A DNA stretch of 59,363 nucleotides from a virus (IMGVR_UViG_3300028048_000083:1-59363); one strand, 5' to 3'; shown: positions 39,264-57,314, numbered from the stretch's first letter. The notes: generated by a model not told the origin, from the letters alone. Numbers and translations are program-made.

Positions 39264-39304
39264 ACAAGACAGGATGACAAGAAATTGCCGCCTGTCTTCA
39301 ATAT

Positions 39305-39377
39305 GCGGACATAGCTCAATGGGTAGAGCGGGAGTTTTCCAAACTTCAGGTTGTGGGTTCGAGCCCCGTTGTCCGCT
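39305..39377 (+). tRNA. tRNA-Gly(TCC)
   Basis: Full cloverleaf; loop TTTCCAA; U73. Confidence 0.92.
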
Positions 39378-39455
39378 CAAGGCGGTTGCCATTGTTTTAG
39401 ACTTCGTAATGGGGGAACACATAAACCCAAAGGATTTTTCTTGGCAGCCAAAATG

Positions 39456-39537
39456 AAACCCGTACAGCAATTGAATTCATTCTTATTCCAAAAAATTGTT
39501 TAACGGAAGAGCGAGACGTAAAACAGCCTGGGTTTTG
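39456..39537 (+). ncRNA. ACAGCAA-stem RNA element E1
   Basis: AAACCC...GGGTTT-TG closing stem; ACAGCAA at 39464. Confidence 0.6.
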
Positions 39538-39542
39538 TATAT

Positions 39543-39629
39543 GGAGGGGTGGCAGAGCGGTTGATTGCAACGGCCTTGAAAACCGTCGACCTCGCAAGGG
39601 GTCCGAGGGTTCGAATCCCTCCCCCTCCG
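39543..39629 (+). tRNA. tRNA-Ser(TGA)
   Basis: Cloverleaf with long variable arm; G73. Confidence 0.92.
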
Positions 39630-39729
39630 CTAAATTTCCTGAACCCACAGTCGTTAAGCGGGCAACGGTCGTCCTTGATGTTGAACCTTCGGTTGGTAAC
39701 GACAGCCGATGCGGAATGCTGATAGGATA

Positions 39730-39807
39730 AGTACGGTCGTCTAGTGGTCTAGGACAGCCCCCTTATCGGGGGGCAGACGTGGTGTTCGAATCCCGTCCGT
39801 AGTTCCA
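39730..39807 (+). tRNA. degenerate tRNA-like gene (8-nt anticodon loop CTTATCGG)
   Basis: D-arm and GC anticodon stem present; T stem imperfect; encoded CCA. Confidence 0.55.
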
Positions 39808-39815
39808 AATCAAAG

Positions 39816-39880
39816 GAAGTCATACAGCAAGCAAAATTAACTCTGAACCATTTCTTTCGGAAAAGTAAATTGACTTCTGA
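39816..39880 (+). ncRNA. ACAGCAA-stem RNA element E2
   Basis: GAAGTCA...TGACTTC-TGA; near copy of E4. Confidence 0.7.
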
Positions 39881-39883
39881 AAT

Positions 39884-39965
39884 GGGTAGGTATACCGTAA
39901 TTGGTAGCGGGCCTGACTGTAAATCAGGTGCTTCGGCTCTGGGGGTTCAAGTCCCTCCCTGCCCA
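39884..39965 (+). tRNA. tRNA-Tyr(GTA)
   Basis: Cloverleaf; CTGTAAA loop. Confidence 0.92.
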
Positions 39966-39970
39966 CAAAA

Positions 39971-40064
39971 CACATCATCATAGTTTAATGTTAGGTACCT
40001 TAGAAAATTTAGAACGCCAGAATGGTAATCTGGAGGTTGCGGTTGGATTCCGTAGTTGATGTGA
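39971..40064 (+). tRNA. tRNA-Thr(GGT)-like gene with ~16-nt D-loop insertion
   Basis: CACATCA/TGATGTG; CCAGA-ATGGTAA-TCTGG; T loop TTGGATT. Confidence 0.55.
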
Positions 40065-40367
40065 CTGATAGAACCTTTTCCTGATAAATCATCAGGTGGC
40101 ATACAAATAAGGCGAAGTCAGTTTTCCTTAACACTTGTTGCACTGATAAAGCCTGATGAATGCTTGGGTGAAAGAATGGGTTAGATTCCCAACTTCTCAA
40201 TCAGCGTATAATGATTGTAGAGACAGTAGTAAGTTAGGTAGTATGACCAACAAGTATTTTTTTTTTAGTTAATAATTAAGTTTTGGTGGTAAACAAAAAA
40301 TAAACCCAAACAGTTAGTCTGTTAGCCAAAGTTGTGGGTTGGACAGCACATCGATAGAAAGATATAG

Positions 40368-40445
40368 TGCGGGGTGGACTGGAGTTGGTTCCAGCTTGGT
40401 CTCATAAGCCAAATCACGGAGGTTCGAATCCTCCCCCCGCTACCA
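40368..40445 (+). tRNA. tRNA-Met(CAT), possibly initiator-type
   Basis: CTCATAA loop, 1:72 mismatch, encoded CCA; lacks the three consecutive G-C anticodon-stem pairs. Confidence 0.85.
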
Positions 40446-40562
40446 AATCTTTTGACAATTTCAATATTCGCGATAAACAATTGTCGAAAGCACACGTATT
40501 TTAACAAGAATATCCCAGAATGGGAAGGTCTAGGTAATCAATCCTTGCGTGTGTAAAAAATT

Positions 40563-40790
40563 AAAGAAAACAGTAGGTGGGCTTGGAAGTAGCCATCCTT
40601 TAAAGAGTGACAGACTGTAACGGAGGACAAAAATCCTGGTGCAATACAAGCTTTAAAAGCCAGGATTCCTTATCGGCAGCAAGTAAACGTGAAACGTGAC
40701 GTGAAACCTATGATTACTACATTGTAAAATGATAATGCTTACCCATAACTAGTAGGCGGTCTTTGGTGTAACAACACACTGGTTTTCTTT
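40563..40790 (+). ncRNA. 23S rRNA H43-H44 (L11/GTPase-associated centre) mimic with internal insertion
   Basis: GGCTTGGAAGTAGCCATCCTTTAAAGAGTG...GTAACAACACACTGG closed by AAAGAAAAC/GTTTTCTTT. Confidence 0.8.
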
Positions 40791-40796
40791 TTTAAT

Positions 40797-40941
40797 GTAT
40801 CTGTGACGGGGAATTGGTATACCCGCGCTTTAAAAGTAGAGACTTCCGTGAAAGACGGATACACATCGTAAAAATTACGGTGAGGTCGAACGGTCATGTA
40901 AATGATGCCAGTTAATGATGGTTCAAATCCATCCAGGTACG
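40797..40941 (+). tRNA. Leu-type tRNA-like gene with greatly expanded anticodon/variable region
   Basis: GTATCTG/CAGGTAC acceptor, GGAATTGGTATA D loop, canonical T arm; anticodon not assignable. Confidence 0.55.
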
Positions 40942-41012
40942 CCCAAAGGCTGTACTGTTAAGCGATTTAGGTGCCAAAGACAATAAGTGTACTGAAACGG
41001 AGCAAAACAGGG

Positions 41013-41235
41013 TTGTAAACAGTTCGTCTAAAGTCTAAGAAATAATATGAACGCCGCAATAAATATCCTCAAAGAGGGGGAAAGAATAATAGGGTCCCGT
41101 AGACCCGAATTCACGCTTGTGGAGAACCCAACCGTGGACGACCGTCAGGCAGAGCCTGACCTAAGAAGCGGTGGTTCGTTGAAACAAGAAGCGGAAACTT
41201 GGGAATCATAAGATTTCATAGGTTTTTGTGTACGG
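41013..41235 (+). mobile_element. minimal non-autonomous IS607-like element retaining the tnpB 3' end / omegaRNA scaffold
   Basis: 41047-41211 encodes NAAINILKEGERIIGSRRPEFTLVENPTVDDR...LRSGGSLKQE, a typical TnpB C-terminal tail. GG at both inferred junctions. Confidence 0.7.
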
Positions 41236-41359
41236 TTTGTCATGTATTGACCATATAAATCATGACCCTATCATCGGTGGAAACGGTGGTCAAAACCAAG
41301 ATGGAGTACTACATCAGCAAGTGAGGGTTTCGAGTTAACGTTAGTAGCTTGCAAATTTT

Positions 41360-41432
41360 GGGAGCATAGCTCAGCTGGTAGAGCGTCGGACTGTTAATCC
41401 GCAGGTCGTAGGTTCGAACCCTACTGCTCCCG
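41360..41432 (+). tRNA. tRNA-Asn(GTT)
   Basis: Canonical cloverleaf. Confidence 0.95.
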
Positions 41433-41440
41433 CAAATTAT

Positions 41441-41507
41441 GGAACCCGTACAGCAAACAATATTTTAGGACCGAACTTTTAATTCGATATTCTACTTTGG
41501 GTTCTGA
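41441..41507 (+). ncRNA. ACAGCAA-stem RNA element E3 with Lys-like anticodon hairpin
   Basis: GGAACCC...GGGTTCT-GA; internal CGAA-CTTTTAA-TTCG. Confidence 0.7.
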
Positions 41508-41536
41508 CGAGAAATTTACCTCGACTTGGCAAGATG

Positions 41537-41601
41537 GAAGTCGTACAGCAAACAAAATTAATTCTGAACCATTTATATCGGAAATGTAAATCGACTTCTG
41601 A
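41537..41601 (+). ncRNA. ACAGCAA-stem RNA element E4
   Basis: GAAGTCG...CGACTTC-TGA; compensatory A-T to G-C change relative to E2. Confidence 0.72.
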
Positions 41602-41678
41602 AAAAAATTAAAAATATTTAAGTTCACAAGCATTATTTTCCACAAATAAGATATTTATATTAAACAATAGTTATAAAT

Positions 41679-42578
41679 ATGCTTAATATAGATATTTCAA
41701 CGGAAGAGAAGCGTAAAGAAACTTTTGAACTTTTTGATAAAATGTTATCAAAAGGAGATATTTTTAAATATTATGGAGTTTCGGATAACACAAAAAATAC
41801 AAATGAATTAAATAGAATTGGTGATATAATAGGTTTTGATTTTTCAATTTATAATAGAAGAAAACATCCAGATAGATTTTGTAAATTATGCGGTAAAAAA
41901 CTTAATTATGGCCAAGATTTATTTTGTTCTAAAAGCTGCTCAGCAAAATATAATAATAAACATCACGTTAGAACCGAAGAAAGTAAACGTAAAACATCTA
42001 AAAGTTTGATTAATTATCACAAAAATAATATAGAAAATAGTGATAAAATATTAATTATAACTGAAGATGGTGATGAAAAGATTTTACATGAACACGTTTG
42101 TGAATGTTGTGGTAAGATTTTCCATAGTAAGAAAAAAAACCGAAAATTCTGTTCTAGAAAATGCTCAGTTAAAAATAGAAGTGATAGATATCGAAACAAT
42201 ATAGATGAATACAAAATATATCATATAGCTTGTGATTTTAAATTTTCGCTAAATGATTATCCTAATGAATTCAATTTTCAGTTGATTGAGGAATATGGGT
42301 GGTATAAAGCAAAAAATCATGGCAACAATTTAAATGGAATAAGTAGAGACCATATATTGTCAGTTCGTGATGGGTTTGAGAATAAAATTGACCCTTATTA
42401 TTTATCTCATCCAGCTAATTGTAATCTTATGATACATAATGATAATATATCAAAACATAAACATTCAGATATTACTTTCGAAGAACTTTTAGAGAGAATA
42501 AAAGAATGGGAAAATAAATATGGCATATATGAAAATAAAATTTCATATGTTGGTATAGAAAGTTTTCAAACAAAATAA
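41679..42578 (+). CDS. His-Me (HNH-like) endonuclease with Zn-finger repeats
   Basis: IDISTEEK N-terminal module; CxxC...FCSxxC repeats; SRDH...HPANC..M.HNDN. Confidence 0.75.
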   Translation: MLNIDISTEEKRKETFELFDKMLSKGDIFKYYGVSDNTKNTNELNRIGDIIGFDFSIYNRRKHPDRFCKLCGKKLNYGQDLFCSKSCSAKYNNKHHVRTEESKRKTSKSLINYHKNNIENSDKILIITEDGDEKILHEHVCECCGKIFHSKKKNRKFCSRKCSVKNRSDRYRNNIDEYKIYHIACDFKFSLNDYPNEFNFQLIEEYGWYKAKNHGNNLNGISRDHILSVRDGFENKIDPYYLSHPANCNLMIHNDNISKHKHSDITFEELLERIKEWENKYGIYENKISYVGIESFQTK

Positions 42579-42583
42579 AATAT

Positions 42584-42655
42584 GGGGTCTTCATATAACG
42601 GCTATTATGAGTGGTTTGCAACCACTTCATGTGGGTTCGATTCCCACAGACTCCA
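42584..42655 (+). tRNA. tRNA-Ala(TGC)
   Basis: Loop TTTGCAA; G3.U70; A73. Confidence 0.85.
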
Positions 42656-42701
42656 CAAATTTAGTTACTTATGACATGGATTAACTAGGTGACAGATAAT
42701 T

Positions 42702-42776
42702 GGTCCATTGGTCTAGTGGTTAGGATACGTGACTGTCTATCACGGGGCGAGGGTTCGATTCCCTCATGGACCGCCA
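42702..42776 (+). tRNA. tRNA-Asp(GTC)
   Basis: Canonical; G73; encoded CCA. Confidence 0.95.
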
Positions 42777-42890
42777 AAAAAAAATTAAAATTTTTGTGGA
42801 AAAAACATGAAGATTTTGGTTATGTATGTGTCTTTGATAGACAAGAGGTATTTGACATGTTGAAGATTGGATACAAATAAGAGAATAAGT

Positions 42891-43023
42891 GTTTTTGTAT
42901 GCAAGAGGCTGAAGCAGGAGGTTGTTAAGGATGCGTCCCTAAAACCGCCAGAGTTTTTCCGAGACACGTTCATTCGGAATTAAAAAAGTTACTCTCACGT
43001 TGGTTCAAATCCAACCAAAAGCA
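42891..43023 (+). tRNA. expanded tRNA-like gene ending its anticodon loop in CTAAA (possible second amber suppressor)
   Basis: GTTTTTG/CAAAAGC acceptor, D arm and T arm present; 21-nt anticodon loop; ~50-nt variable arm. Confidence 0.45.
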
Positions 43024-43356
43024 CAAAAAGGCATATGGTGGCGTTATGCGACGTACCCAAAGCTAATAGATGGTGATACTAGTGAAAAGTCGTGTTGGAT
43101 ATGGGTATGAGGAATTCCAACTTAGGATAGGTCACCCGCAACGTGCCTTTTATTTTTCAAGTTATTGGCAGTCAGAAAGAAGTTGCAAATTCTTTTAAAG
43201 CCGAAGTAGAATGTCCCTTATGTTCTGACACATAAGGTTCGGGGATAGGGATGATGTTCTTCGGTAATGTTAAAGAAGTCGTAATCCAGTAACGGACGTG
43301 ATATAAGTGTACACATATCACGGAAGGCTACGTCGGTAACGTTACAACCATAAATT

Positions 43357-43428
43357 CGAGGATGTAGTGTAATTGGCAACACACGTCATTTGGGATGACG
43401 AGTTGGCGTTCGAGTCGCACATCCTCGA
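43357..43428 (+). tRNA. tRNA-Pro(TGG)
   Basis: CGTCA-TTTGGGA-TGACG; T stem imperfect. Confidence 0.8.
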
Positions 43429-43485
43429 CAAGTTTTAGTTCGAAATTTGTTTTTCCGACTATTTATAATTAAATTAAGTTTAATT

Positions 43486-44139
43486 ATGGATAGTATAATA
43501 AAAGAACAAATTTTAAATTGTAAAAGTTATGCAGAAGCGATTCGTATATTGTATGGTAAAAATTATACAAATGGAAAATTGCAAGAAAAAGTTAGACAAG
43601 ATTGTTTAAATAATGGTATCGATTTTCAATCTGTTTTAGAAAAAAATAATACAAAACATTGTTTAAATTGTGGGAAAATTCTTGAATTAAAATCGCAATC
43701 CAAATTCTGTTCATCTTCATGCGCAGCTAAAATCAATAATACAAAACGCAAAAAAGAGAAGTATTGTATTAATTGTGGAACACAGATAGATAATAACCAA
43801 AAATTTTGTTCAAATAAATGTCAATGTGAGTTTAAAGCTAAAGAAATTACAAATCAATGGCTAAATAATGAACATAGTGGATGCGATAAAAATGGTGAAT
43901 TAAGTGAATTCGTTAGAAGGTATGTTTTAGAATTACATGAACATAAATGTGATGTGTGTGGTTTTAATGAAAAAAACCCATTTAGTGGTAATGAAATATT
44001 AGAAATACATCATATTGATGGTGATTGTTTTAATAATAACTTATCAAATTTACAAGTTCTTTGTCCAACACATCACGCAATGACATATAATTATGGTCGT
44101 AGAAATTACAATTGCACTAGAAAACGTTATAAAAAATAG
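43486..44139 (+). CDS. HNH endonuclease with Zn-finger repeats
   Basis: LEIHHIDGD..NN..SNLQVLCPTHHA; ATG at 43486. Confidence 0.9.
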   Translation: MDSIIKEQILNCKSYAEAIRILYGKNYTNGKLQEKVRQDCLNNGIDFQSVLEKNNTKHCLNCGKILELKSQSKFCSSSCAAKINNTKRKKEKYCINCGTQIDNNQKFCSNKCQCEFKAKEITNQWLNNEHSGCDKNGELSEFVRRYVLELHEHKCDVCGFNEKNPFSGNEILEIHHIDGDCFNNNLSNLQVLCPTHHAMTYNYGRRNYNCTRKRYKK

Positions 44140-44170
44140 CGGGTCGCGGGTTCAAGTCCCGTCTTCCGCT
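44140..44170 (+). pseudogene. orphan 3' half of a tRNA (Gly-like)
   Basis: GGTC-GCGGG-TTCAAGT-CCCGT-CTTCCGC-T directly after the HNH stop; no matching 5' half found. Confidence 0.75.
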
Positions 44171-44192
44171 CTAACCAAAAAACAAATCTAAA

Positions 44193-44585
44193 ATGAAGTT
44201 AATAAGTGTTATTTTGTTGTTATGGGAATTACCCCAAATTTTGTTGGGCAGGATGTTATCCAGAAAAACTGGCAGGTATGCTCATACGGTCGACGGTGTC
44301 CGTATTTATGTAACTGACAAGTTTGACGGAATGTCATTGGGCGACACAGTGTTTGTTAACCCAAATGCAAGTGAAGGAACGTGGCTAGTCAAACATGAGT
44401 TTGGTCATGTGAAACAAAGCCGATATCTTGGGTGGCTGTATTTGCCGTTGATTTTCGTGCCGTCATATGTTTGGAACAAATTCATTTCGTTTGTTGATGG
44501 TCTGAATGTCATGGAAGACTGGCGTTTAACTTATGTTTATCATCAGTTTTACACGGAATGGTGGGCAAACTGGCTTATAGCTTAG
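44193..44585 (+). CDS. putative Zn-metallopeptidase-like membrane protein
   Basis: HEFGH (HExxH) motif; hydrophobic segments; TEWWAN. Confidence 0.7.
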   Translation: MKLISVILLLWELPQILLGRMLSRKTGRYAHTVDGVRIYVTDKFDGMSLGDTVFVNPNASEGTWLVKHEFGHVKQSRYLGWLYLPLIFVPSYVWNKFISFVDGLNVMEDWRLTYVYHQFYTEWWANWLIA

Positions 44586-44591
44586 TATAAT

Positions 44592-44664
44592 TGTCCCATT
44601 GCATAAGGGTAGTGCGGCGGGTTTTGGTCCCGCGTCTGTCGAGGTTCGAATCCTCGTGGGACAA
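44592..44664 (+). tRNA. tRNA-Gln(TTG)
   Basis: Cloverleaf; TTTTGGT loop; U1-A72. Confidence 0.9.
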
Positions 44665-44787
44665 CAAAATCGCATATGGCAATAAAATCCCCAAAATAAA
44701 ATAGTATCGGCAAGTGCTAGAATAGCCACGGGGATATGCGTTGGACGTTAACTGTATAAAATTGCCGTTTTATATGGGGTCGAAAAA

Positions 44788-44858
44788 AATGCTTTGGTGT
44801 AACGGCAGCACGTCCGTCGTGGAGACGGAAGGTCTGGGTTCGAATCCCAGTAGTGTTC
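44788..44858 (+). tRNA. His-like tRNA with aberrant anticodon loop (CGTGGAG)
   Basis: D and T arms normal; C73; GTG off-register and no U33. Confidence 0.55.
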
Positions 44859-44860
44859 AA

Positions 44861-45125
44861 AGTGACGGTTGTTGATAGTCATTCGAATGTATGTAAGACT
44901 TCGGTTCGAATCCGAACAGGTCCACGATGTTACCGATATTAAAAAGGGGCATGAAGGTCGCGGTCACCTTAAGACCGTATTTGGGCTTGACTTGGTTTTG
45001 ATTGCATATTAGTAGGGTGGAAGTAGACTGTTACTGAAGTTGTTTAAACGGCAACACAAACTATTCTTATCGCATGGCTGCCTAAGTTGGGCACCCACAG
45101 CGGGGCTGGCAACGAGCCAAATCGT
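44861..45125 (+). ncRNA. ssrA: circularly permuted (two-piece) tmRNA
   Basis: Acceptor piece 44861-44924 (T arm + CAGGTCC-A) precedes coding piece from 44983 (GGGCTTG...GGTTTTGA). G3.U70 present. Tag GNTNYSYRMAA* at 45050-45085. Confidence 0.88.
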
Positions 45126-45334
45126 TGCTTTATTTTGAAAACTTGACAGTCCCCCACACATACATTAAAATTGACAGTGCAGGCTCAGACCGTTTGTGTG
45201 TTATACAGACGTGGCTGACCAATGACCATTGCCTTGTATGACCAGGTGGGAACGATGCGCCAGACTATAGTGGTACATCGTTGAAGCGGGCACACCAGCG
45301 TGGAAGCAAGAGCTTTTCTGGTGTTTTCTTTTTT

Positions 45335-45415
45335 GGAGGACTGGTGAAATTGGCAGACACGTGGGGTTTAAGCTCCCATGCCTAGTGCGTCTGGGTTCGA
45401 GTCCCAGGTCCTCTA
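45335..45415 (+). tRNA. tRNA-Leu(TAA)
   Basis: Cloverleaf with variable arm; TTTAAGC loop. Confidence 0.9.
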
Positions 45416-45920
45416 CATTCAAGCATTAAAAATAATTGATTGACAGATAACAAAAAATATAACCTAAATTGAAATTTGTGTAATTGATAGTATAGAGCCA
45501 GTTGTCCCAAACTATCGTTAATACTTGGTGGTGAATCAAGAAGCGCAGGGAAATGCGGGCATCGCAGGAGTAGCGCTATTATGCTTACTTGCAAGAATTT
45601 CGATATAGGTTTTTTTCAAGTTGCTGGGTCGCGCCCAGCCATCGGATTAATTTTCGGAAAAGTTTGGTCTTCCGATGCTAAATGACTACAAACTCCCTTT
45701 GTATTACGATACCAACGTGGATGTAATATGAAGTATAAGCTGGTTATAAGAATACAGTCTTATTCGAAGCCAGATAGCGATACGTTGGTCTTTTGACTCT
45801 GTGGGTATTTGAGAGCATATTCAAACCCAATCAGATAGGACATGCACTGGAAGATACGGATGAAGGAGACTCCGAAGCATTTATAGAGTGTGCGGTAAAC
45901 CGTATTAAGACGCACAAATT

Positions 45921-47915: not shown

Positions 47916-47921
47916 CTTTCT

Positions 47922-50507: not shown

Positions 50508-51290
50508 ATGAAGATTAAAAATTTAGAAAAAGCCGAGAACCTTCCAATGAAGGAATCGATGAGGAGAAGTTCAGATTACGACTCCTGGGATTGCTATCAT
50601 GTCTGTGGACATGGCTATTATTCATGGTTAAGAGGTTTTGTCGCTAAAAATGTAGGACAACCTTTTAACGATGTTTATTCAAAATTCAAGAAATCCTTGT
50701 CAAAAAAACATGTTGGCAGTGAGACAAAGTATGAATTGATTCAATATTTTCGTGGTTTAATTGAAACCAGAAGATACAGAAGCTATTGGATTGCCGATTA
50801 TTATGTAGATGAGGATGGTATTCTATGCAAAGAGCCTAGGAAAACCAAATCAAGGGATATTACCATTAGATATGGTGAACCTGTGACTGTCTATAAATTC
50901 AGAAGAGAATACAGTGAAACCGTTTTTGGTTGTATGGCAGTATGTTTTGGCTATAAAAGGGCTAAATCAATGATTGAAAATGGTATATCAGAAAAGGAAT
51001 TCCACACCGAAACCAATGAAGTACGTCGATACAACAATTTGGTACGCCAAAAGTTCTACGATGAGAACAATTTTAATTGCTACAATATGTGTTGGATAAG
51101 TTTGTGGATAGGCTATTCCACATATCCATATAGCGTGACTTTGAAATATAGGTCACGTGAGTATTACAAGTATTGGTATGAAAGACAGGATGCAACAAGA
51201 AAGTATCAACGAAAAAGATACCAGGAACTTATTGACAGGTTCAATCGTTGCGAACTCCAACACAGTGAACATCCTTTTCTGTTTGAATAA
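50508..51290 (+). CDS. hypothetical protein
   Basis: ORF; ATG at 50508. Confidence 0.8.
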   Translation: MKIKNLEKAENLPMKESMRRSSDYDSWDCYHVCGHGYYSWLRGFVAKNVGQPFNDVYSKFKKSLSKKHVGSETKYELIQYFRGLIETRRYRSYWIADYYVDEDGILCKEPRKTKSRDITIRYGEPVTVYKFRREYSETVFGCMAVCFGYKRAKSMIENGISEKEFHTETNEVRRYNNLVRQKFYDENNFNCYNMCWISLWIGYSTYPYSVTLKYRSREYYKYWYERQDATRKYQRKRYQELIDRFNRCELQHSEHPFLFE

Positions 51291-51305
51291 ATACTGTTTA
51301 ATCAT

Positions 51306-51377
51306 GGTGACTATGGTGTAATGGTAACACGCGACATTGTGGATGTTGAATTCTGGGTTCGAGCCCCAGTTGTCACC
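51306..51377 (+). tRNA. tRNA-His(GTG)
   Basis: G-1:C73; TTGTGGA loop. Confidence 0.92.
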
Positions 51378-51397
51378 CAAAATTTTAAGGAAAAAAT

Positions 51398-51619
51398 ATG
51401 CAAAATCTGGTTATATATCAAAAAAAAATAGAAATGGCTAAAATATCAAAAGAGGACATGGAGGAATATCTCCTTGACAGAGAAATGACTAGCATTGAAA
51501 CATTTGAGAATTTCTGCAATGCTTGTGACAACTTCGGCACACTTGAATGCCCATATAATGGAAAGGTTGTGCTTAGTACGGATTGGAGAAACATCGGATG
51601 TTCTAATTTTGAAGATTAA
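51398..51619 (+). CDS. small Cys-rich hypothetical protein
   Basis: ORF; true start may be MAKISK. Confidence 0.6.
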   Translation: MQNLVIYQKKIEMAKISKEDMEEYLLDREMTSIETFENFCNACDNFGTLECPYNGKVVLSTDWRNIGCSNFED

Positions 51620-51631
51620 AAATAAGTTGTT

Positions 51632-52168
51632 ATGGTAGTAGTACACATGGATACACGGTTTGACACTGTAGACTTAGCAAGGGTTTACGATGGGTTGGAT
51701 TGTACGTTGTTTTATACTCCGACACGTGGGGATAGACGTGCCATTATGGATGCTATCCGTAATGATGAAGGTCCTGTGATATTACTCGGTCATGGTACAC
51801 CAAGAGGTTTGCTTGACCCTACTTTCTGTGATTACATAATTGAATCCAGTGATGTTGATTTGTTAAGGCAAAGAACTATTATCGGTATTTGGTGTTATGC
51901 TTCAGAATTTGCCGATAGGTATGGTTTGCATGGTTTTTTCTCTTCAATGTTTGTGTCAAACATTAATGAGGCAGTCGAACTTCAAGTAGACCGTTTAGCC
52001 ACTGAAGAGAATATTGCTGAAGAATTTGAGTTATTCTGCCGTACAATCAATTGTTTTATCCGTGCCGAGTTACCAATGGATGAATGGGTTGAGAATTTAC
52101 AGGGAATGTGTAATCGTGAACTGCCTTTTGTAAGGTATAACTATGAAGCATTATCGTATTTTGAATGA
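51632..52168 (+). CDS. hypothetical protein
   Basis: LLGHGTPRGL...GIWCYASEF. Confidence 0.8.
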   Translation: MVVVHMDTRFDTVDLARVYDGLDCTLFYTPTRGDRRAIMDAIRNDEGPVILLGHGTPRGLLDPTFCDYIIESSDVDLLRQRTIIGIWCYASEFADRYGLHGFFSSMFVSNINEAVELQVDRLATEENIAEEFELFCRTINCFIRAELPMDEWVENLQGMCNRELPFVRYNYEALSYFE

Positions 52169-52381
52169 AAATATTTTTGCTTATATGAGACAAAAATTGT
52201 ATATTACATATAGACAAATATAATAACAAATAAAAATTAAAGTTTATGGGCACAGATTTTATGTAGATGAAATTCACGTAGGTTGATATTAATGCTCCTC
52301 CGTAACATTCTAATTTAATGAAAATGATTGGATGTTAAATAAAACAAAAACAATTAATAATAAATTTAAATTAGAATTAAA

Positions 52382-53116
52382 ATGAATATCTTAAAAATTT
52401 TCAATAGTAAAAACAATGCAGAAAAAAGCACGGAGTTGAACAGCAACATCAATACTGAAAGAATTAACAATAAAGACGGTATCCTTGAATTCAAGGAAGT
52501 AATCAAAAAGGTTGCTAATGAACAAAAGGAAATCAGGAAAACAACAAGAAGTTCACACAATAAAACCGATTGTATTGTATTAGCACAATTTCAAAACAAT
52601 GAAAGGGAGAACAGTAAATGGTTGTTTCAGGCAAATACCGCTTATTACATAGTCAAACATTATTTGTGGCTTGATGAAAACAAGGATAAAAAAGCCGAGT
52701 ATCTGAATAAGGTGGTCGAAGAAGCAAAACGAGTGTTCAAAACCGACCGAACCGATAAGGACAAATGGTTTGTTGAAAAATTCCTTGATGGGGTTGATAA
52801 TTTTGTCAAAGCGTATATCCCGAACGAATAGAGTGAATCAAGACTGTATGTATTGGTTTCAAAAGATTTAGACCCTGTTTACGGGTGCGTGCAGGGAGGT
52901 CATGCTGTGGCACAATGGCTGCTTGAGCATGACACTGGATGGAAAAACAACTATCTGATTTACCTTTACGCCGATGTTGACGAATGGGTAGAAAAACTAA
53001 ATCGAGGCAAAATCGACTATTCGATATTCAGAGAACCCGACCTGGCAAACAAAATAACCGCAATTGCAGTAGAGAATGACGGCGAGTTGTTCAAGAAACT
53101 GCAGTTAGTGAAATGA
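52382..53116 (+). CDS. protein with in-frame TAG (52829-52831) and C-terminal Pth2-like domain
   Basis: Frame continues ...PNE*SESRLYVLVSKDLDPVYGCVQGGHAVAQW...FREPDL.NKITAIAV; no ATG for the second part. Confidence 0.65.
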
Positions 53117-53166
53117 AAATCTCGCAAAAAGGCATGATGCCGACCTTTCCAAAACGGCATCAAATT

Positions 53167-53239
53167 GCGCCCGTGGCTGAGTGACTTAGGCGACCGTCTC
53201 TAAAACGGTACTACACGGGTTTGAATCCTGTCGGGCGCA
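53167..53239 (+). tRNA. amber suppressor tRNA (CTA)
   Basis: ACCGT-CTCTAAA-ACGGT; complete cloverleaf; T loop TTTGAAT. Confidence 0.9.
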
Positions 53240-53462
53240 CAAAGAGGTTGGAGGTTAACATTTACGCCATACCAGCTGTCAGTGCCGTTTGAGCCTAGAG
53301 CAGCGAATTTTTAGGCGAAAATGCAAATGACTTTTGATTAAGCGGTGACGAGCCAAACTGGTCATTAGCCAGATTGCCTCTGGCAAAAGCCAGATGTCCG
53401 TGAAAGTCGGAGGAGAGTCTTCCAGTGTATCGTGTTCTACTCCTTAAACAAGTAACAAGTAC

Positions 53463-53546
53463 GCCCAGGTGGTGGAATTGGTAGACACGCTTGGCTAAGG
53501 ACCAAGTGCCCGAAAGGGCTTGTGGGTTCGAGTCCCACCCTGGGTA
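53463..53546 (+). tRNA. tRNA-Leu(AAG)
   Basis: CTTGG-CTAAGGA-CCAAG; long variable arm; A73. Confidence 0.88.
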
Positions 53547-53639
53547 CAAACAACATTTTACATTGAATATATTTACTTGTATGATGTTCGGGGAGAAGCA
53601 AAAAAGAATATCAAGCCAATGGTAGATGCTCCCCATAAT

Positions 53640-53714
53640 GACCGAGTACCTGAGTGGTTTAAAGGCCAAGTCTGCAAAACTTCGGATTCGGGGGTTCGAA
53701 TCCCTCCTCGGTCA
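53640..53714 (+). tRNA. tRNA-Cys(GCA)
   Basis: CTGCAAA loop. Confidence 0.88.
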
Positions 53715-53722
53715 CTAAATAT

Positions 53723-53756
53723 GCCCAGGTGGTGGAATTGGTAGACACGAGAGTCT
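53723..53756 (+). pseudogene. 5' half of a Leu tRNA, truncated at the anticodon
   Basis: First 27 nt identical to 53463; ends at ...AGAGT-CT just before the HNH promoter. Confidence 0.8.
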
Positions 53757-53845
53757 AAAATAAGTAGACATGTAAAAAAAATATTATGCGTGTCTACTCT
53801 TTTTTTAATTTCTTGATATTTATATATAAGTAAAAATATTGAGAA

Positions 53846-54652
53846 ATGAAGAAAAATGAAAGAACGGAACAGGAATACAGAGATGCTGCTAAAAATTCAT
53901 TTAGTTTTGCTGGAATGTGTCGCTATTTAGGATTGGGCGCTTTTGGGGCTAATTACAGAAGATTACACAAAGCAATCGATGAATACGGAATTGATGTATC
54001 ACATTTTACAGGTCAAGGTTGGAATGTTGGTATGATTTTTAATCCAATGGATAAAAAAAAGAAGTCTCTTGATGAAATTTTAATTGAAAATTCAGATTAT
54101 GACAACACTAACACATTAAAAAATCGTTTATTCAATGAGGGAGTAAAAGAAGAAAGATGTGAAAAATGTGGACTAACTGAATGGAATGGAGAACCAATAC
54201 CATTACAACTACATCATATTAATGGTAATAGAAGAGATAATAGATTGGAAAATTTACAGATATTATGTCCAAACTGTCATGCACAAACTGACAATTTTTG
54301 TGGGAAAAATGTAGATAAACCTAAACGTAGAAATCTAAATAAAATTGAACGTTATGAAAAAGTAAAAGAAGCATATGGTGAAGAATTTGCTATTAAAACT
54401 TTTGGTATAATTGAACAAAAAAAGAATAAGTCAAAACAGAAAAAAATTTGTCCTGTATGTGGGAAAGAACTTAAAAAAAGTGAATATACGTACTGTTCAC
54501 TTGAATGTTCACATAAGTCAACAAAAAAATTACCTGAAGATAGCATAATTATTAATCACATTAAAAATGGTTTAACCAATCAGGAAATTGGTGACATATA
54601 TGGCGTAACAGAAGCTTGTGTTAGAAAATGGAAGAAAAAACATAATATATGA
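53846..54652 (+). CDS. HNH endonuclease with C-terminal HTH
   Basis: LQLHHINGNRRDNRLENLQILCPNCHA. Confidence 0.92.
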   Translation: MKKNERTEQEYRDAAKNSFSFAGMCRYLGLGAFGANYRRLHKAIDEYGIDVSHFTGQGWNVGMIFNPMDKKKKSLDEILIENSDYDNTNTLKNRLFNEGVKEERCEKCGLTEWNGEPIPLQLHHINGNRRDNRLENLQILCPNCHAQTDNFCGKNVDKPKRRNLNKIERYEKVKEAYGEEFAIKTFGIIEQKKNKSKQKKICPVCGKELKKSEYTYCSLECSHKSTKKLPEDSIIINHIKNGLTNQEIGDIYGVTEACVRKWKKKHNI

Positions 54653-54657
54653 TTAAT

Positions 54658-54732
54658 GGCTCAGTAGGAGAACTGGAATATCCGCTTCACTCAAAATGAA
54701 GAGTTCTGTGGGTTCGAATCCCACCTGAGCTA
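54658..54732 (+). tRNA. tRNA-Leu(CAA), short variable region
   Basis: CTTCA-CTCAAAA-TGAAG. Confidence 0.85.
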
Positions 54733-54897
54733 CAAAGCAAATATCAATCGTTAGACAATAAGAACCGTGAGCGACGGAGTGGTTAAACGGTAAATGCGTT
54801 TGGGTGGAATTCCCTTGGATAAGATGCCTCTGCTTGAGACCACATTCAAGATTAAAACGTTAAATCAGCGCGGTGTCATAAGGTATTTGTTTTTTAT

Positions 54898-54969
54898 TGA
54901 CCCATAGTGTAGTGGCTAGCACGTCAGATTCTGGCTCTGATAACGGAGGTTCGAATCCTCCTGGGTCAA
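54898..54969 (+). tRNA. tRNA-Gln(CTG)
   Basis: TCAGA-TTCTGGC-TCTGA; U1-A72. Confidence 0.92.
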
Positions 54970-55061
54970 CAAATAAATAAGCATAATTTAATAAAAAATA
55001 TTTCAAAACGTATATACTTTTTGAAAGTTTATGATATTTATTGATATAAAGATTAAATATT

Positions 55062-55820
55062 ATGAACGAAAAAAGGGAATATATAAGAGAAAATTTGGGT
55101 ATTATAAACAAAATGATAGAAAATAAACGACCTAAATTTGAAATTGCTAGAGTTTTAGGTGTTAAATATGAAACATTAAATAAGTATTTAAAAGAGTTTG
55201 GAATTAAATATGAGGGAAACCCTAACAGAAAAGGTATTCCACATTTAGAAGGTAGAACCTTTATGGAGGAATATTTTAATGGGAATATAAATGTATCAGC
55301 ATCTACGTTACGAAGAAAATTAATAAAAAACGGGTTTAAAGATGAAAGATGTGAGTGTTGCGGATTAACAGAATGGATGGGTAAAAAAATACCATTAGAA
55401 CTGCATCATATTAATGGTAACCATAATGATAACAGATTAGAAAATTTACAAATATTATGTTCTAATTGTCATTCACTGGCACATGAATATAGTAATAGTA
55501 ACAATAAATCAAAAAATGTGGTTAATACAACCCTTTTAGAAAAGTGTTTATCTGGTGACAATAATACCGAAAGGCAAAAGAAAGAAAAAGAAAAAAATAT
55601 ACGATATTGTAAACACTGTGGGAAAAAATTAAAAAGTAACCAAAAAAATTACTGTTCACAAAATTGTGCTCATGCTCATGTTGCTAAAATACCATCCAAA
55701 AATGAATTAGTTAATAAATTAAATGAGTTTAATTGGAATAAAACGAAAACTGGTAAATATTTTGATGTTAGCGGTAACACTGTTAATAAATGGATTAAAA
55801 AATACGATATAATAAAATAA
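55062..55820 (+). CDS. HNH endonuclease with HTH domains
   Basis: LELHHINGNHNDNRLENLQILCSNCHS; paralog of 53846. Confidence 0.92.
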   Translation: MNEKREYIRENLGIINKMIENKRPKFEIARVLGVKYETLNKYLKEFGIKYEGNPNRKGIPHLEGRTFMEEYFNGNINVSASTLRRKLIKNGFKDERCECCGLTEWMGKKIPLELHHINGNHNDNRLENLQILCSNCHSLAHEYSNSNNKSKNVVNTTLLEKCLSGDNNTERQKKEKEKNIRYCKHCGKKLKSNQKNYCSQNCAHAHVAKIPSKNELVNKLNEFNWNKTKTGKYFDVSGNTVNKWIKKYDIIK

Positions 55821-55821
55821 T

Positions 55822-55898
55822 GCCACTGTGGGCAAAGTGGGAAAGTCGGCTATTTTAGGGGTAGCGTCATGTTGTCGGTTCGATTCCGACCAGTGGCA
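55822..55898 (+). tRNA. tRNA-Leu(TAG)
   Basis: GCTAT-TTTAGGG-GTAGC; perfect acceptor stem. Confidence 0.85.
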
Positions 55899-55990
55899 CA
55901 AAAACAATTTTCTGCAATTCACTGAAAAATTACTCAATTTACGGTTATTGTTTTGTAATTTGTATTTTTAAACCAATCATCAATTTGTTT

Positions 55991-56494
55991 ATGAAGAAAT
56001 TAATTATCATTCTTTTATGTTTAGTTTTTGCCAGTTGCCATGCGACGTATGATGTGACAATGCAGGATGATTTCACCAAAGCCAAGAACAATATGCTGTC
56101 GGTTTCCAGCGGATATGGTTACAGCTGGGTGAATGCGAACGCGCTTGACACAACCCTTTACGTATCTGAAGACCAATATACGCCAATTGGATATTTCACA
56201 CATGAACAACATGTTTTCTCGTCAGGAAAGGATACTGTTTTGCTTGATTTGCGGTATCGCCACAGGGCAATTACGGAAGTGAGGACAATCCCTTATGTGG
56301 AACAGATAACGGTCGGTTGTTCTGGAAACGCGGAACTGTGTGATACTTTATGTAATCTGTTCACAAACCCGCCAAAAACCAAAACCAGGGTGGTTACGGA
56401 AGAATCGCTTGTTGGTACATTGATTGGAGCCATGATACTGCCGATAATTTCCTTTCTAACCTTTACGGTGGTCAACGACGGACATTCTTTTTAA
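55991..56494 (+). CDS. putative lipoprotein with C-terminal TM segment
   Basis: MKKLIIILLCLVFASC lipobox. Confidence 0.75.
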   Translation: MKKLIIILLCLVFASCHATYDVTMQDDFTKAKNNMLSVSSGYGYSWVNANALDTTLYVSEDQYTPIGYFTHEQHVFSSGKDTVLLDLRYRHRAITEVRTIPYVEQITVGCSGNAELCDTLCNLFTNPPKTKTRVVTEESLVGTLIGAMILPIISFLTFTVVNDGHSF

Positions 56495-56571
56495 TTTTTG
56501 AAAAAAAATTTGTATATTAGAAATTAGAATATTTAATTAAATAATAACTAATAAAATTTAAATAAACTTTT

Positions 56572-57198
56572 ATGAAGAAAATTCTAATTCTGTTTATGGG
56601 TGTTGCTATGATGGGCATGATGTCATGCAACTCCTGCGGTCACAAGAAAGCCGTGTTCAACGGTTATGATGCCAATACCGTTATGGCAGCCGACAAAGCT
56701 GTTGCGGTCAGCATGTACGGTGACAGTGTGAGACACTATGAATGTCAAGTGAACTACAACAACACTTTCGACAGTGTTGATGGTGACAACATGATTGTCA
56801 AGGTCATGAACGTGTTCCAGTACAGCGATACGTCGCTTATGATTTACCATTTTGCTGATACTAGCGAAATCGGAAAACTGGTTGAATACGCAAACTCCAT
56901 TGAGAGCTATCACACCTATACAATCGACACCAACAAGACTGACTACACGTTTACTCTTATTGTAAACGACATTTGGTTGGAAGACCAGAATATGGGTATT
57001 GACAGTATCAATTTCACACTCGCCGACGCTTACGATATCTACATGAACTCAGACTATGTCAAGCCACATTCCAACTTTGTGGTTATCCGCCAGCCATTGT
57101 TCCCACCATTCCCAACAGCACCTTATTACATTTTTGGCAACATGTATGAATGTGCTGCAATCGACAGCAAAACTGGCGAATTTGTAGAGAATTTCTAA
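56572..57198 (+). CDS. putative lipoprotein
   Basis: MKKILILFMGVAMMGMMSC lipobox. Confidence 0.8.
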   Translation: MKKILILFMGVAMMGMMSCNSCGHKKAVFNGYDANTVMAADKAVAVSMYGDSVRHYECQVNYNNTFDSVDGDNMIVKVMNVFQYSDTSLMIYHFADTSEIGKLVEYANSIESYHTYTIDTNKTDYTFTLIVNDIWLEDQNMGIDSINFTLADAYDIYMNSDYVKPHSNFVVIRQPLFPPFPTAPYYIFGNMYECAAIDSKTGEFVENF

Positions 57199-57243
57199 AC
57201 AAACATAATATCCCATTCTGAAATATGGATGGGATTAAATTTT

Positions 57244-57314
57244 GCCCTCATCGTTCAACGGAAGGACATGGCCCTTCTAAAGCTAGAATTGGGGTTCGAA
57301 TCCCTATGGGGGTA
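57244..57314 (+). tRNA. tRNA-Arg(TCT)
   Basis: CTTCTAA loop; cloverleaf. Confidence 0.82.

What the first reader, a model, noticed from the sequence alone, without database searches (positions are those of the whole stretch)
39300..57314. Synthesis: an 18-kb array of translation-machinery RNAs and mimics paired with an RNA end-repair toolkit
Seen: about 30 tRNA or tRNA-like genes, of which about a third are interrupted, expanded or truncated, plus a permuted tmRNA, an rRNA-domain mimic, ACAGCAA elements and many unexplained structured spacers. All are co-oriented behind rrn-like promoters. The same window encodes a CCA enzyme, RNA ligase, P-loop kinase, phosphoesterases, HAD phosphatase, YqeY, IF3 and a Pth2-like domain. 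Inference: a coordinated system supplying, shielding and repairing translation RNAs against host anti-translation defences, where several functional RNAs exist only after cut-and-join processing. The individual parts are directly visible; the coordination is a hypothesis.
Basis: inference. Interest (0 to 1): 0.75.

Follow-up and report, generated by a model that had tools for sequence, protein, structure and literature searches.

The report
Jumbo-phage tRNA island with Ro60-partner RNAs
This stretch of a giant phage genome holds about 30 tRNA-type genes, a ribosome-rescue RNA and RNA-repair enzymes (a known phage strategy against host attacks on translation), and its oddly "interrupted" tRNAs mostly belong to a widespread, apparently undescribed RNA family that travels with a Ro60-like protein rather than being shown to need cutting and rejoining.

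Summary
On the + strand, 39305-57315 carries about 31 tRNA or tRNA-like genes. About 10 are aberrant. There is also a permuted tmRNA, six homing-endonuclease ORFs and six stem+ACAGCAA elements. Upstream lie a polynucleotide kinase, a phosphatase, an RNA ligase, two phosphoesterases, a CCA enzyme, YqeY and IF3. "rrn-like promoters", "HAD" and "Pth2" were not verified.

The supply-plus-repair theme is already published for jumbo phages (PMC7824862). The cut-and-join claim is not supported.

- The ACAGCAA module marks at least 120 loci in IMG/VR.
- It co-occurs with a Ro60-like DUF2828 protein: 26/32 records against 4/20 controls, p=3e-5.
- It does not co-occur significantly with this RNA ligase family: 11/32 against 3/20, p=0.2.
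- This genome encodes such a protein 6 kb past the array. Its model matches Ro60 structures.

The interrupted genes are conserved in relatives, with compensatory changes, so they are not junk. One tRNA body with the insert swaps only its anticodon loop between relatives: Lys-UUU, Thr-UGU, Asn-GUU. These are the three tRNAs cut by PARIS AriB.

Whether inserts are kept or removed remains open. This scan has noted the same RNA/Ro60-like pairing before in many other phage genomes. I found no paper or Rfam family for it.

The parts
39305..57315 (+). tRNA/small-RNA array: about 21 ordinary tRNAs, about 10 aberrant tRNA-like genes, tmRNA and homing-endonuclease ORFs
39456..39535 (+). free-standing ACAGCAA element E1 (closing stem AAACCC/GGGUUU)
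39815..39878 (+). free-standing ACAGCAA element E2 (8-bp closing stem GGAAGUCA/UGACUUCU)
40563..40790 (+). structured spacer; 40572-40618 resembles the 23S rRNA L11/GTPase-centre region
   Evidence: region conserved in G001
41441..41505 (+). free-standing ACAGCAA element E3
41536..41599 (+). free-standing ACAGCAA element E4; its closing stem differs from E2 by a compensatory pair
   Evidence: weak Rfam RF01414 hit below cut-off
42891..43024 (+). oversized tRNA-like gene, conserved in G001
44835..45176 (+). permuted (two-piece) tmRNA, tag GNTNYSYRMAA
   Evidence: same tag in G001
47113..47250 (+). tRNA-like (Trp-CCA if joined) with a 66-nt structured insert in the anticodon loop
   Evidence: fold z -2.9
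47387..47510 (+). tRNA-Pro(UGG) body with a 52-nt hairpin+ACAGCAA insert between positions 29 and 30
47711..47916 (+). tRNA-Met(CAU) split in the anticodon by a 131-nt insert that begins with an inner tRNA-like gene (47746-47823)
47921..48031 (+). tRNA-like with an extended anticodon arm and a long variable arm
   Evidence: fold z -3.8
48146..48285 (+). oversized tRNA-like gene
50064..50192 (+). tRNA body with a 53-nt hairpin+ACAGCAA insert at 29/30; the anticodon loop is hypervariable among relatives
53167..53240 (+). amber-suppressor-type tRNA (anticodon CUA)
   Evidence: present in G001 and L362-L365
41679..42578 (+). HNH-type homing-endonuclease ORF
43447..44139 (+). zinc-ribbon/HNH endonuclease ORF; no G001 match across 43025-44590
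46086..46931 (+). HNH endonuclease ORF
48637..49704 (+). endonuclease-like ORF (resolvase/HNH PHROG hits); no G001 match across 48031-49724
53846..54652 (+). HNH endonuclease ORF
55062..55820 (+). HNH endonuclease ORF
8190..8654 (+). P-loop polynucleotide kinase (AAA_33; phrog_505)
8638..9231 (+). phosphatase-family ORF overlapping the kinase gene end; not shown to be HAD
9961..10530 (+). translation initiation factor IF3
21686..23149 (+). CCA-adding/poly(A) polymerase-family enzyme with HD domain
23360..23815 (+). YqeY-like protein
25843..26448 (+). phosphoesterase (phrog_547)
27556..28374 (+). calcineurin-like metallophosphoesterase
29307..30866 (+). ATP-dependent RNA ligase (phrog_968), followed by a LAGLIDADG ORF at 30964-31971

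Best explanation
This is the tRNA/small-RNA island of a jumbo phage. CheckV puts the 123-kb record at 32% complete, and relatives' contigs reach 380-400 kb. Three layers sit together.

(1) Ordinary supply. About 21 normal tRNAs (including an amber suppressor) and a two-piece tmRNA are interspersed with six mobile homing-endonuclease ORFs.

(2) A T4-like end-healing and sealing set lies in the same early, co-oriented region: polynucleotide kinase, phosphatase, phosphoesterases and ATP-dependent RNA ligase. A CCA enzyme, IF3 and YqeY lie there too.

(3) A set of tRNA-derived and small structured RNAs are not ordinary tRNAs. At least six carry a 'stem + ACAGCAA' module. Two carry it as a 52-53-nt graft between positions 29 and 30 of a tRNA anticodon stem. 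Four are free-standing RNAs in which the same stem closes a small cargo.

I infer that this module is a retained protein handle for the Ro60-like DUF2828/DUF7788 protein encoded 6 kb beyond the array, and not an intron. On this reading the RNAs are Y-RNA-like tRNA mimics, acting as decoys, tethers or quality-control partners.

Shown here: the genes, their conservation, the Ro60-like fold and the genome-level co-occurrence. Inferred: binding, retention of the insert, and the anti-defence role.
For: Gene content.

Conservation of the insert-bearing genes in G001 and L362-L365. The Pro(UGG) exons are invariant around the insert while the insert hairpin changes compensatorily (GACUUU/AAAGUC against GCUUU/AAAGC and GGCU/AGCC). 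Acceptor-stem pairs also change compensatorily.

Layouts. The free-standing and grafted forms are circular permutations of one architecture. E2 and E4 differ by a compensatory pair in the closing stem.

Spread. The pattern ACAGCAA-N28-45-GGTTCGAATCC hits at least 120 IMG/VR loci on many unrelated large contigs. It occurs once in 20 control records of 100-608 kb, and that record also has DUF2828.

Co-occurrence with DUF2828: 26/32 motif-bearing records against 4/20 controls, p=2.7e-5. Among records at least 90% complete: 17/19 against 3/11.

This genome. It encodes a DUF2828+DUF7788 protein at G000:C1:63530-64978(-). The AF2 model has pLDDT 83. All ten top Foldseek PDB hits are Ro60/TROVE structures, including Thermus phage phiLo Ro60 (TM 0.55).

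Literature. Jumbo phages combine tRNAs, RNA ligases, PNK, phosphatases, CCA enzymes and sometimes a TROVE protein 'with a tRNA-like partner' (PMC7824862).
Against: No binding or expression data exist.

In this genome the Ro60-like gene is 6-25 kb from the ACAGCAA elements and on the other strand. It is not adjacent to them.

Pfam TROVE does not match anywhere in the genome. The RNAs do not match Rfam YrlA (21.9 bits against a 69-bit cut-off). They lack the CGAA motif of the phiLo Y-like RNAs.

With the insert removed on paper, the anticodon stems are perfect. 63 of 75 family members with a readable loop keep canonical U33 and purine-37. In G001 the insert-bearing gene is the only Thr tRNA. These three features are what true introns would also give.

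A kept graft would leave only a 2-bp helix under the anticodon loop.

Six of 32 motif-bearing records have no DUF2828 match, two of them at least 90% complete.
Confidence: 0.55

Rival explanations
1. The inserts are true introns of a new, protein-dependent kind: the ACAGCAA class at 29/30, the 131-nt tRNA-bearing insert in tRNA-Met and the 66-nt insert in tRNA-Trp. An endonuclease (for the nested case perhaps RNase P at the inner tRNA's 5' end) cuts them out. The phage kinase/phosphatase and RNA ligase rejoin the halves into decoding tRNAs.
For: Deleting each insert restores a perfect 5-bp anticodon stem and a 7-nt loop.

The Met insert is a precise presence/absence polymorphism. W and L364 have it; G001 and L362 have the uninterrupted gene. 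In W the split gene still changed acceptor pair 3-70 compensatorily.

The insert starts exactly at position 1 of the inner tRNA-like gene.

Family-wide, loops are canonical: U33 in 66/75 and R37 in 70/75.

The insert-bearing gene supplies the only Thr tRNA in G001.

Healing and sealing enzymes are encoded in the same window.
Against: No group I or known self-cleaving ribozyme match at E<=1.

The inserts are 52-131 nt and end in A/U, not G.

For the 29/30 class the 3' junction lies 11 nt from the outer helix, so on reading the junctions no bulge-helix-bulge can form. This was by inspection only.

No EndA-like gene appeared among the ORFs scanned.

The RNA ligase family co-occurs only weakly with the motif: 11/32 against 3/20, p=0.2; 7/19 complete motif-bearing genomes have it.

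Free-standing permuted versions of the module make no sense as introns.

No joined (insert-free) copy of the Pro gene exists in the viral or metagenome contigs.

The Pro(UGG) insert-bearing gene is redundant with a normal Pro(UGG) at 43357.
Confidence: 0.25
2. Nothing coordinated. This is an ordinary jumbo-phage tRNA array churned by homing endonucleases. The aberrant tRNA-like genes are decaying pseudogenes hit by small mobile insertions, and the repair genes merely lie in the same early region.
For: Six endonuclease ORFs sit in the array and the G001 alignment breaks around them.

Some aberrant genes have odd loops (UCACCAA in 50064-50192) or a degenerate T arm (48483-48556).

Fold z-scores of several are unremarkable.
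Against: Insert-bearing genes are conserved across relatives at 70-96% protein identity. The tRNA bodies are nearly invariant and stems change compensatorily.

The inner tRNA-like gene is 77/78 identical between W and L364 while its AT-rich tail drifts.

The module recurs in at least 120 loci with canonical anticodon loops.

The module has a non-random link to one protein family.
Confidence: 0.1

Closest known systems
Ro60 (Rsr/TROVE) with Y RNAs, especially the tRNA-mimicking YrlA type and phage phiLo Ro60/Yrl1-2 (PMC4201824; PMC12135203; Rfam RF02553)
   Same: A ring-shaped Ro60-like protein (fold match) is encoded in a genome rich in small RNAs that combine a short conserved stem module with a tRNA-like body. 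In the literature these sit in an RNA-repair context (rsr-yrlBA-rtcBA operon, PMC7790460, abstract seen; TROVE in jumbo phages, PMC7824862).
   Different: The protein belongs to DUF2828/DUF7788 and is not matched by Pfam TROVE. The RNA module is stem+ACAGCAA, not the bulged helix or CGAA motif. The RNAs miss RF02553. Many members keep a full anticodon loop and real tRNA ends, with the module grafted into the anticodon stem. No binding has been shown.
Phage T4 tRNA cluster plus Pnk/Rnl1 repair of PrrC-cleaved tRNA-Lys; the jumbo-phage RNA-repair repertoires surveyed by Iyer et al. 2021 (PMC7824862)
   Same: Own tRNAs plus polynucleotide kinase, phosphatase, ATP-dependent RNA ligase and CCA enzyme in one phage. 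The accepted role is countering host attacks on tRNAs.
   Different: The array here is larger, with a tmRNA, IF3, an amber suppressor and about 10 non-canonical tRNA-like RNAs. The kinase and phosphatase are separate overlapping ORFs. Substrates are untested.
[quoted passage not shown]
   Same: The same three anticodons appear, one per relative, in the hypervariable loop of the 50064-50192 gene family. As in the T5 variants, position 39 differs from the U36-A-A-U39 AriB determinant; here it is C39.
   Different: Here one tRNA body carries a 50-nt graft opposite the AriB cut site and swaps loops between relatives. T5 has three separate normal tRNAs. The host and its defences are unknown. The link is an inference.
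Archaeal BHB introns at non-canonical positions, and group I introns in bacterial tRNA anticodon loops
   Same: tRNA genes are interrupted in or near the anticodon arm, including position 29/30. Deleting the insert restores the tRNA. One insert shows presence/absence polymorphism.
   Different: No BHB geometry, no EndA, no group I core, and sizes of 52-131 nt. The insert family also exists as free-standing permuted RNAs.
Dictyostelium Class I RNAs (Rfam RF01414)
   Same: From my own knowledge, these are short RNAs with a terminal stem followed by a conserved CCUUACAGCAA box. Three free-standing elements give sub-threshold hits of 26-30 bits.
   Different: The hits are below the 41.5-bit cut-off and the organisms are unrelated. 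This is probably a chance or convergent resemblance.

Membership tests
tRNA (Rfam RF00005) | Cloverleaf matching the covariance model above gathering score | tested here: met
   26 matches of at least 29 bits in the array and 28 in the whole record. Five of these need 20-70 extra nt in the anticodon arm.
tRNA (decoding function) | Uninterrupted 5-bp anticodon stem and 7-nt loop with U33 and purine-37 in the mature RNA | tested here: inconclusive
   Met only after deleting the inserts on paper. 50064-50192 would have loop UCACCAA with C33. The mature RNAs are unknown.
Permuted tmRNA (Rfam RF04321) | Two-piece tRNA-like domain in permuted order, plus a tag reading frame | tested here: met
   63.7 bits against a 47-bit cut-off, over the full model length. 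ARAGORN calls a permuted tmRNA with tag GNTNYSYRMAA. G001 has the same tag.
Ro60/TROVE - Y RNA particle | Ring of HEAT-like repeats plus a vWA domain (Ro60 fold) | tested here: met
   AF2 model of G000:C1:63530-64978(-) has pLDDT 83. Top Foldseek hits are Ro60 structures 9nep, 9kop, 9l5y, 1yvr and 2nvo, E 1e-7 to 3e-5.
Ro60/TROVE - Y RNA particle | Sequence membership in Pfam TROVE (PF05731) | tested here: not met
   No match in the genome at E<=10. The protein matches DUF2828 and DUF7788 instead.
Ro60/TROVE - Y RNA particle | Partner RNA with the conserved Ro-binding helix (Y RNA/YrlA model) | tested here: not met
   The only YrlA hit is 21.9 bits against a 69-bit cut-off and lies on a tRNA half. 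The module here is stem+ACAGCAA, not the CGAA motif.
Ro60/TROVE - Y RNA particle | RNA genes travel with the protein gene | tested here: met
   Genome-level: 26/32 against 4/20, p=2.7e-5. In this genome they are 6-25 kb apart and not adjacent.
Ro60/TROVE - Y RNA particle | Physical binding of RNA to protein | not testable with these tools
   No RNA-protein modelling or experimental data were available.
Group I intron | Catalytic core (P3-P9), about 200 nt or more, U before the 5' splice site, G at the intron 3' end | tested here: not met
   No Rfam intron hit at E<=1. The inserts are 52-131 nt and end in AU or CC.
Archaeal/eukaryal protein-spliced (BHB) tRNA intron | Two 3-nt bulges separated by a 4-bp helix at the junctions; EndA-type endonuclease | tested here: not met
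   By inspection of the sequences, 11 exon nt lie between the 3' junction and the outer helix for the 29/30 class. No EndA family appeared among the ORFs scanned. The scan was not exhaustive.
T4-type RNA healing and sealing (Pnkp + Rnl) | P-loop 5'-kinase, 3'-phosphatase and ATP-dependent RNA ligase encoded by the phage | tested here: met
   PF13671 and phrog_505 (polynucleotide kinase); phrog_335 (phosphatase); phrog_968 (RNA ligase, E 1.5e-35). I saw no HAD motif.
T4-type RNA healing and sealing (Pnkp + Rnl) | Acts on cleaved tRNAs | not testable with these tools
   This needs biochemistry.

The most novel reading that the evidence does not exclude
The insert-bearing tRNA bodies are programmable decoys, or protected stand-ins, for host nucleases that cut the anticodon stem. 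One conserved tRNA body with a Ro60-like-protein handle grafted at 29|30 lies exactly across the helix from the 40|41 bond that PARIS AriB cleaves. Between close relatives it swaps only its anticodon loop among Lys-UUU, Thr-UGU and Asn-GUU, the three AriB targets. On this reading the phage lineage retunes a protein-tagged bait to whichever tRNA its host's defence attacks.
Probability: 0.2. Interest if true: 0.85.

Novelty: new variant of a known kind. Interest (0 to 1): 0.6.

Why it matters
The general idea is already in the literature: a jumbo phage brings its own tRNAs and RNA-repair enzymes to survive host attacks on translation.

What is not, as far as I could search, is the RNA side of the phage Ro60-like proteins. 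A large family of small RNAs is marked by stem+ACAGCAA. The module is often built into otherwise normal-looking tRNA genes that standard annotation either misses or calls intron-containing.

If these are kept handles, they define a new Ro60/Y-RNA-type particle in hundreds of phages, with tRNA mimics as partners. If they are removed, they are a new kind of bacterial-virus tRNA intron.

Either way, the loop swapping among exactly the PARIS target anticodons gives a concrete, testable link between these RNAs and tRNA-targeting immunity.

Tried and rejected
- Megablast of the array and tblastn of the upstream 693-aa ORF against GenBank phages: no relative, apart from one tRNA-sized match.
- A 14-mer scan (AAGTCGTACAGCAA) of IMG/VR returned only scattered single hits on unrelated contigs; I treated them as chance.
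- AF2 of ORF 34842-36572, first suspected as the Ro60-like partner, without an alignment: pLDDT 36, unusable. Its PDB sequence search found nothing.
- Pfam TROVE in the genome: no hit.
- My own hairpin/closing-stem classifier had a high random background (34% and 28% of random positions), so I did not use its counts.
- ARAGORN intron mode misplaces inserts that lie in the stem, so I used it only to locate genes.
- Exact search for an insert-free (joined) copy of the Pro gene in viral and metagenome contigs: none.
- Search for an insert-free copy of the 50064-type body: only an unrelated tRNA-Asn with the same anticodon stem.
- Search for the inner tRNA-like gene elsewhere in IMG/VR: none.
- PDB sequence searches with the RNA ligase and with the DUF2828 protein: nothing useful.
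- Sigma-70 promoter scan: only a mild excess, which cannot support 'rrn-like promoters'.
- Known ribozymes, group I introns and the L10 leader as explanations for the inserts or spacers: no Rfam support.

Full report
**What the window is.** The window is the first 59 kb of a 123-kb IMG/VR virus record that CheckV rates 32% complete. Close homologues of its proteins lie on contigs of 380-400 kb. It is therefore a piece of a jumbo phage. The gene-sized ORFs I scanned in the window are all on the + strand.

**The RNA genes are real.**
- ARAGORN tRNAs and a permuted tmRNA between 39305 and 57315.
- Rfam gives 26 tRNA matches above gathering score, and tmRNA_permuted at 63.7 bits against a 47-bit cut-off.
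- Several Rfam matches are far too long for a tRNA. The alignments show 20-70 extra bases in the anticodon arm.
- ARAGORN in intron mode, and reading the sequence, add 42891-43024, 47113-47250, 47387-47510, 47711-47916, 47921-48031, 48146-48285 and 50064-50192.
- Six ORFs in the array are HNH or related homing endonucleases. The alignment to the relative G001 has gaps across two of them and only weak fragments at two others.

**The enzymes are mostly real.**
- Polynucleotide kinase, 8190-8654
- An overlapping phosphatase-family ORF, 8638-9231
- IF3, 9961-10530
- A CCA/poly(A)-polymerase-family enzyme with an HD domain, 21686-23149
- YqeY, 23360-23815
- Two phosphoesterases, 25843-26448 and 27556-28374
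- An RNA ligase, 29307-30866

Three claims were not verified. I saw no HAD motif in 8638-9231. The 'Pth2-like' domain has only a weak hydrolase hit. The sigma-70-type promoter scan is only mildly above shuffles, 83 against 65 +/- 7, so 'rrn-like promoters' stays unverified.

**The rRNA-like piece.** 40572-40618 aligns to E. coli 23S positions 1053-1106 (the L11/GTPase-centre region) with score 49, against 21 +/- 3.5 for shuffles. The region is conserved in G001. I did not pursue its function.

**Relatives.** One IMG/VR contig (G001, 245 kb) is 81% identical in the flanking 693-aa protein. It carries the array at its very end. Four short metagenome contigs (L362-L365) were reached through the array-internal ORF 50472-51290.

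**Conservation of the ACAGCAA-bearing genes.**
- The Pro(UGG) gene with its insert is present in W, G001, L362 and L364.
- The exon bases around the insert are invariant.
- The insert hairpin differs compensatorily between relatives.
- Acceptor pairs 1-72 and 6-67 also differ compensatorily.
- Removing the insert on paper gives CGG|GC paired to GCCCG, so the insert lies between positions 29 and 30 of the stem.
- The 50064-50192 gene has the same insert at the same place.

**Conservation of the nested Met gene.** tRNA-Met(CAU) 47711-47916 is split inside the anticodon by 131 nt. The insert begins exactly at base 1 of an inner tRNA-like gene. L364 has the same insert. G001 and L362 have the uninterrupted gene. 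The inner gene is 77/78 identical between W and L364, while the AT-rich tail drifts. Acceptor pair 3-70 of the split gene is U-A in W and C-G elsewhere. These genes are therefore under selection and are not debris.

**The ACAGCAA module is a widespread family.**
- In the window the extended motif occurs 8 times against 1.6 expected, six of them in the array.
- Two copies are the tRNA inserts: A/U linker, 6-8-bp hairpin, 1-2 nt, ACAGCAA, A/U linker.
- Four are free-standing RNAs. In these an 8-bp stem whose 5' strand directly precedes (U)ACAGCAA closes a 40-60-nt cargo.
- E2 and E4 differ by a compensatory pair in that stem.
- The hits are tRNA genes of many isoacceptors with the same insert in the 5' strand of the anticodon arm. 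The rest have the layout 'tRNA end, RGGAANNNN-ACAGCAA, 3' half of a tRNA'.
- In 20 control phage records of 100-608 kb that carry tRNAs, the looser pattern occurs once.
- Of 75 members with a readable anticodon hairpin, 66 have U33 and 70 have a purine at position 37. Thr-UGU (9) and Lys-UUU (8) are the commonest anticodons.
- No Rfam family reaches threshold on these elements.
- Four paper searches found no description.

**The partner lead and my test of it.** Earlier notes of this scan on other genomes proposed that the module is the handle of a Ro60-like DUF2828 protein. I tested this here.
- Pfam TROVE finds nothing in the genome.
- DUF2828 does match: a 482-aa DUF2828+DUF7788 ORF at G000:C1:63530-64978, minus strand, 6 kb beyond the array.
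- With a 26-sequence alignment its AF2 model has pLDDT 83.
- The best PDB matches are all Ro60: human and Xenopus Ro60, D. radiodurans Rsr, and Thermus phage phiLo Ro60 at TM 0.55.
- Across IMG/VR records of at least 100 kb, 26 of 32 with the motif encode DUF2828, against 4 of 20 controls (p=2.7e-5). Among records at least 90% complete it is 17/19 against 3/11.
- The one control with the motif is DUF2828-positive.
- G001 shows no DUF2828, but its contig ends inside the array, before the place where the gene lies in G000.

The RNA ligase family of this window (phrog_968) is found in 11/32 motif-bearing records and 3/20 controls (p=0.2). Only 7 of 19 complete motif-bearing genomes have it. Other ligase families and host RtcB were not surveyed, so this weakens the splicing idea but does not exclude it.

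**Kept handle or intron?**
For a kept handle:
- the link to a Ro60-like protein
- the permuted free-standing forms
- no ribozyme, group I or BHB features
- redundancy of the Pro gene with a normal Pro(UGG) at 43357

For an intron:
- perfect stems after deletion on paper
- canonical loops across the family
- the insert-bearing gene being the only Thr tRNA in G001
- the clean presence/absence polymorphism of the Met insert

I put about 55% on kept handles (Y-RNA-like tRNA mimics), 25% on true introns and 10% on decay.

**An unexpected pattern.** Five copies of the 50064-type gene are 93% identical. The tRNA body is nearly invariant, yet all five columns of loop positions 32-36 vary: UCACC (W and L365), CUGUU (L363), AUUGU (G001) and CUUUU (L362). 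That is 5/5 variable columns against 22/124 elsewhere (p=3e-4).

The three canonical loops are Asn-GUU, Thr-UGU and Lys-UUU. These are exactly the tRNAs that the PARIS nuclease AriB cleaves. They are also the ones phage T5 must supply as resistant variants (PMC12409363). AriB cuts between positions 40 and 41. The insert sits between 29 and 30, the bond directly across the helix. Position 39 is C here, not the U that AriB needs.

This is post hoc, and the host is unknown. It does suggest that the loop identity of this RNA matters in a conflict over tRNAs, whether as a bait or as a replacement.

**Comparison with what is known.** Iyer et al. 2021 already describe jumbo phages as combining tRNA provisioning with RNA ligases, polynucleotide kinases, phosphatases and CCA enzymes. 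In a few phages they also note a TROVE protein 'with a tRNA-like partner' (PMC7824862).

The known phage Ro60 (phiLo) binds Y-like RNAs with a CGAA motif (PMC12135203), not ACAGCAA. Three things go beyond what I could find published: the module and its grafting into tRNA genes, the nested tRNA, and the loop swapping. This scan has noted the module in at least 37 other genomes.

**Verdict.** The system is a known kind (phage translation support plus RNA repair) with a new variant of the Ro60/Y-RNA theme inside it. The cut-and-join mechanism is unproven.

Noticed in passing
window 2694-6020: The DnaK (Hsp70) gene is in two ORFs: 2694-3311 covers profile positions 1-203 and 4725-6020 covers 196-597. 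They are separated by a 355-aa ORF (3625-4692) with a weak phage endonuclease I hit, so a mobile element probably splits the chaperone gene. DnaJ follows at 6126-7253.
   Followed up: no
window 29307-31971: The RNA ligase ORF is 519 aa against a 398-position PHROG profile. A LAGLIDADG homing-endonuclease ORF (30964-31971) follows directly.
   Followed up: no
window 40572-40618 (within 40563-40790): A segment resembles the 23S rRNA L11/GTPase-associated-centre region (E. coli 1053-1106): local alignment score 49 against 21 +/- 3.5 for shuffles, with a 27-nt core 89% identical. The surrounding region is conserved in G001.
   Followed up: partly
window 52382-53240: ORF 52382-52831 ends in TAG and the frame continues to 53116 if TAG is read through. 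An amber-suppressor-type tRNA(CUA) lies 50 nt downstream (53167-53240). The same tRNA is present in all five relatives.
   Followed up: partly
window 50064-50192; L365:1236-1364; L363:820-948; L118:4144-4269(-); L362:2381-2504: The anticodon loop (positions 32-36) is the only hypervariable block of an otherwise 93%-identical RNA. The loops UUU, UGU and GUU equal the three PARIS/AriB target tRNAs.
   Followed up: partly
window 39455-39537, 41442-41506, 41537-41600: Three free-standing ACAGCAA elements give sub-threshold Rfam hits (26-30 bits, cut-off 41.5) to Dictyostelium Class I RNA. From memory, that RNA has a terminal stem followed by CCUUACAGCAA.
   Followed up: no
L362:597-719: In one relative the motif reads ACCGCAA instead of ACAGCAA in the Pro(UGG) insert, so the third base is not absolutely fixed.
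   Followed up: no
G000:C1:65621-65704 (-), outside the window: A lone tRNA-like gene (36.9 bits) lies on the minus strand just upstream of an SSB gene and of the Ro60-like DUF2828 gene. It is the only tRNA match outside the array.
   Followed up: no
window 8190-9231: The polynucleotide-kinase ORF and the phosphatase-family ORF overlap by 17 nt in different frames. In T4 the two activities are one protein. I saw no DxDxT motif in the second ORF.
   Followed up: partly
window 50348-50423 vs G001 (rc 10413-10486) and L362-L364: Neighbouring ordinary tRNA genes also change anticodon between relatives. The ARAGORN lists give GAU (Ile) in the window and L365 but CAU in G001, L362, L363 and L364 at the corresponding place.
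   Followed up: no
window 11295-12197: A phage-encoded sigma-70-family factor (regions 1.2 and 2) lies in the same early region. This makes a host sigma-70 consensus scan a poor test of the array's promoters.
   Followed up: no
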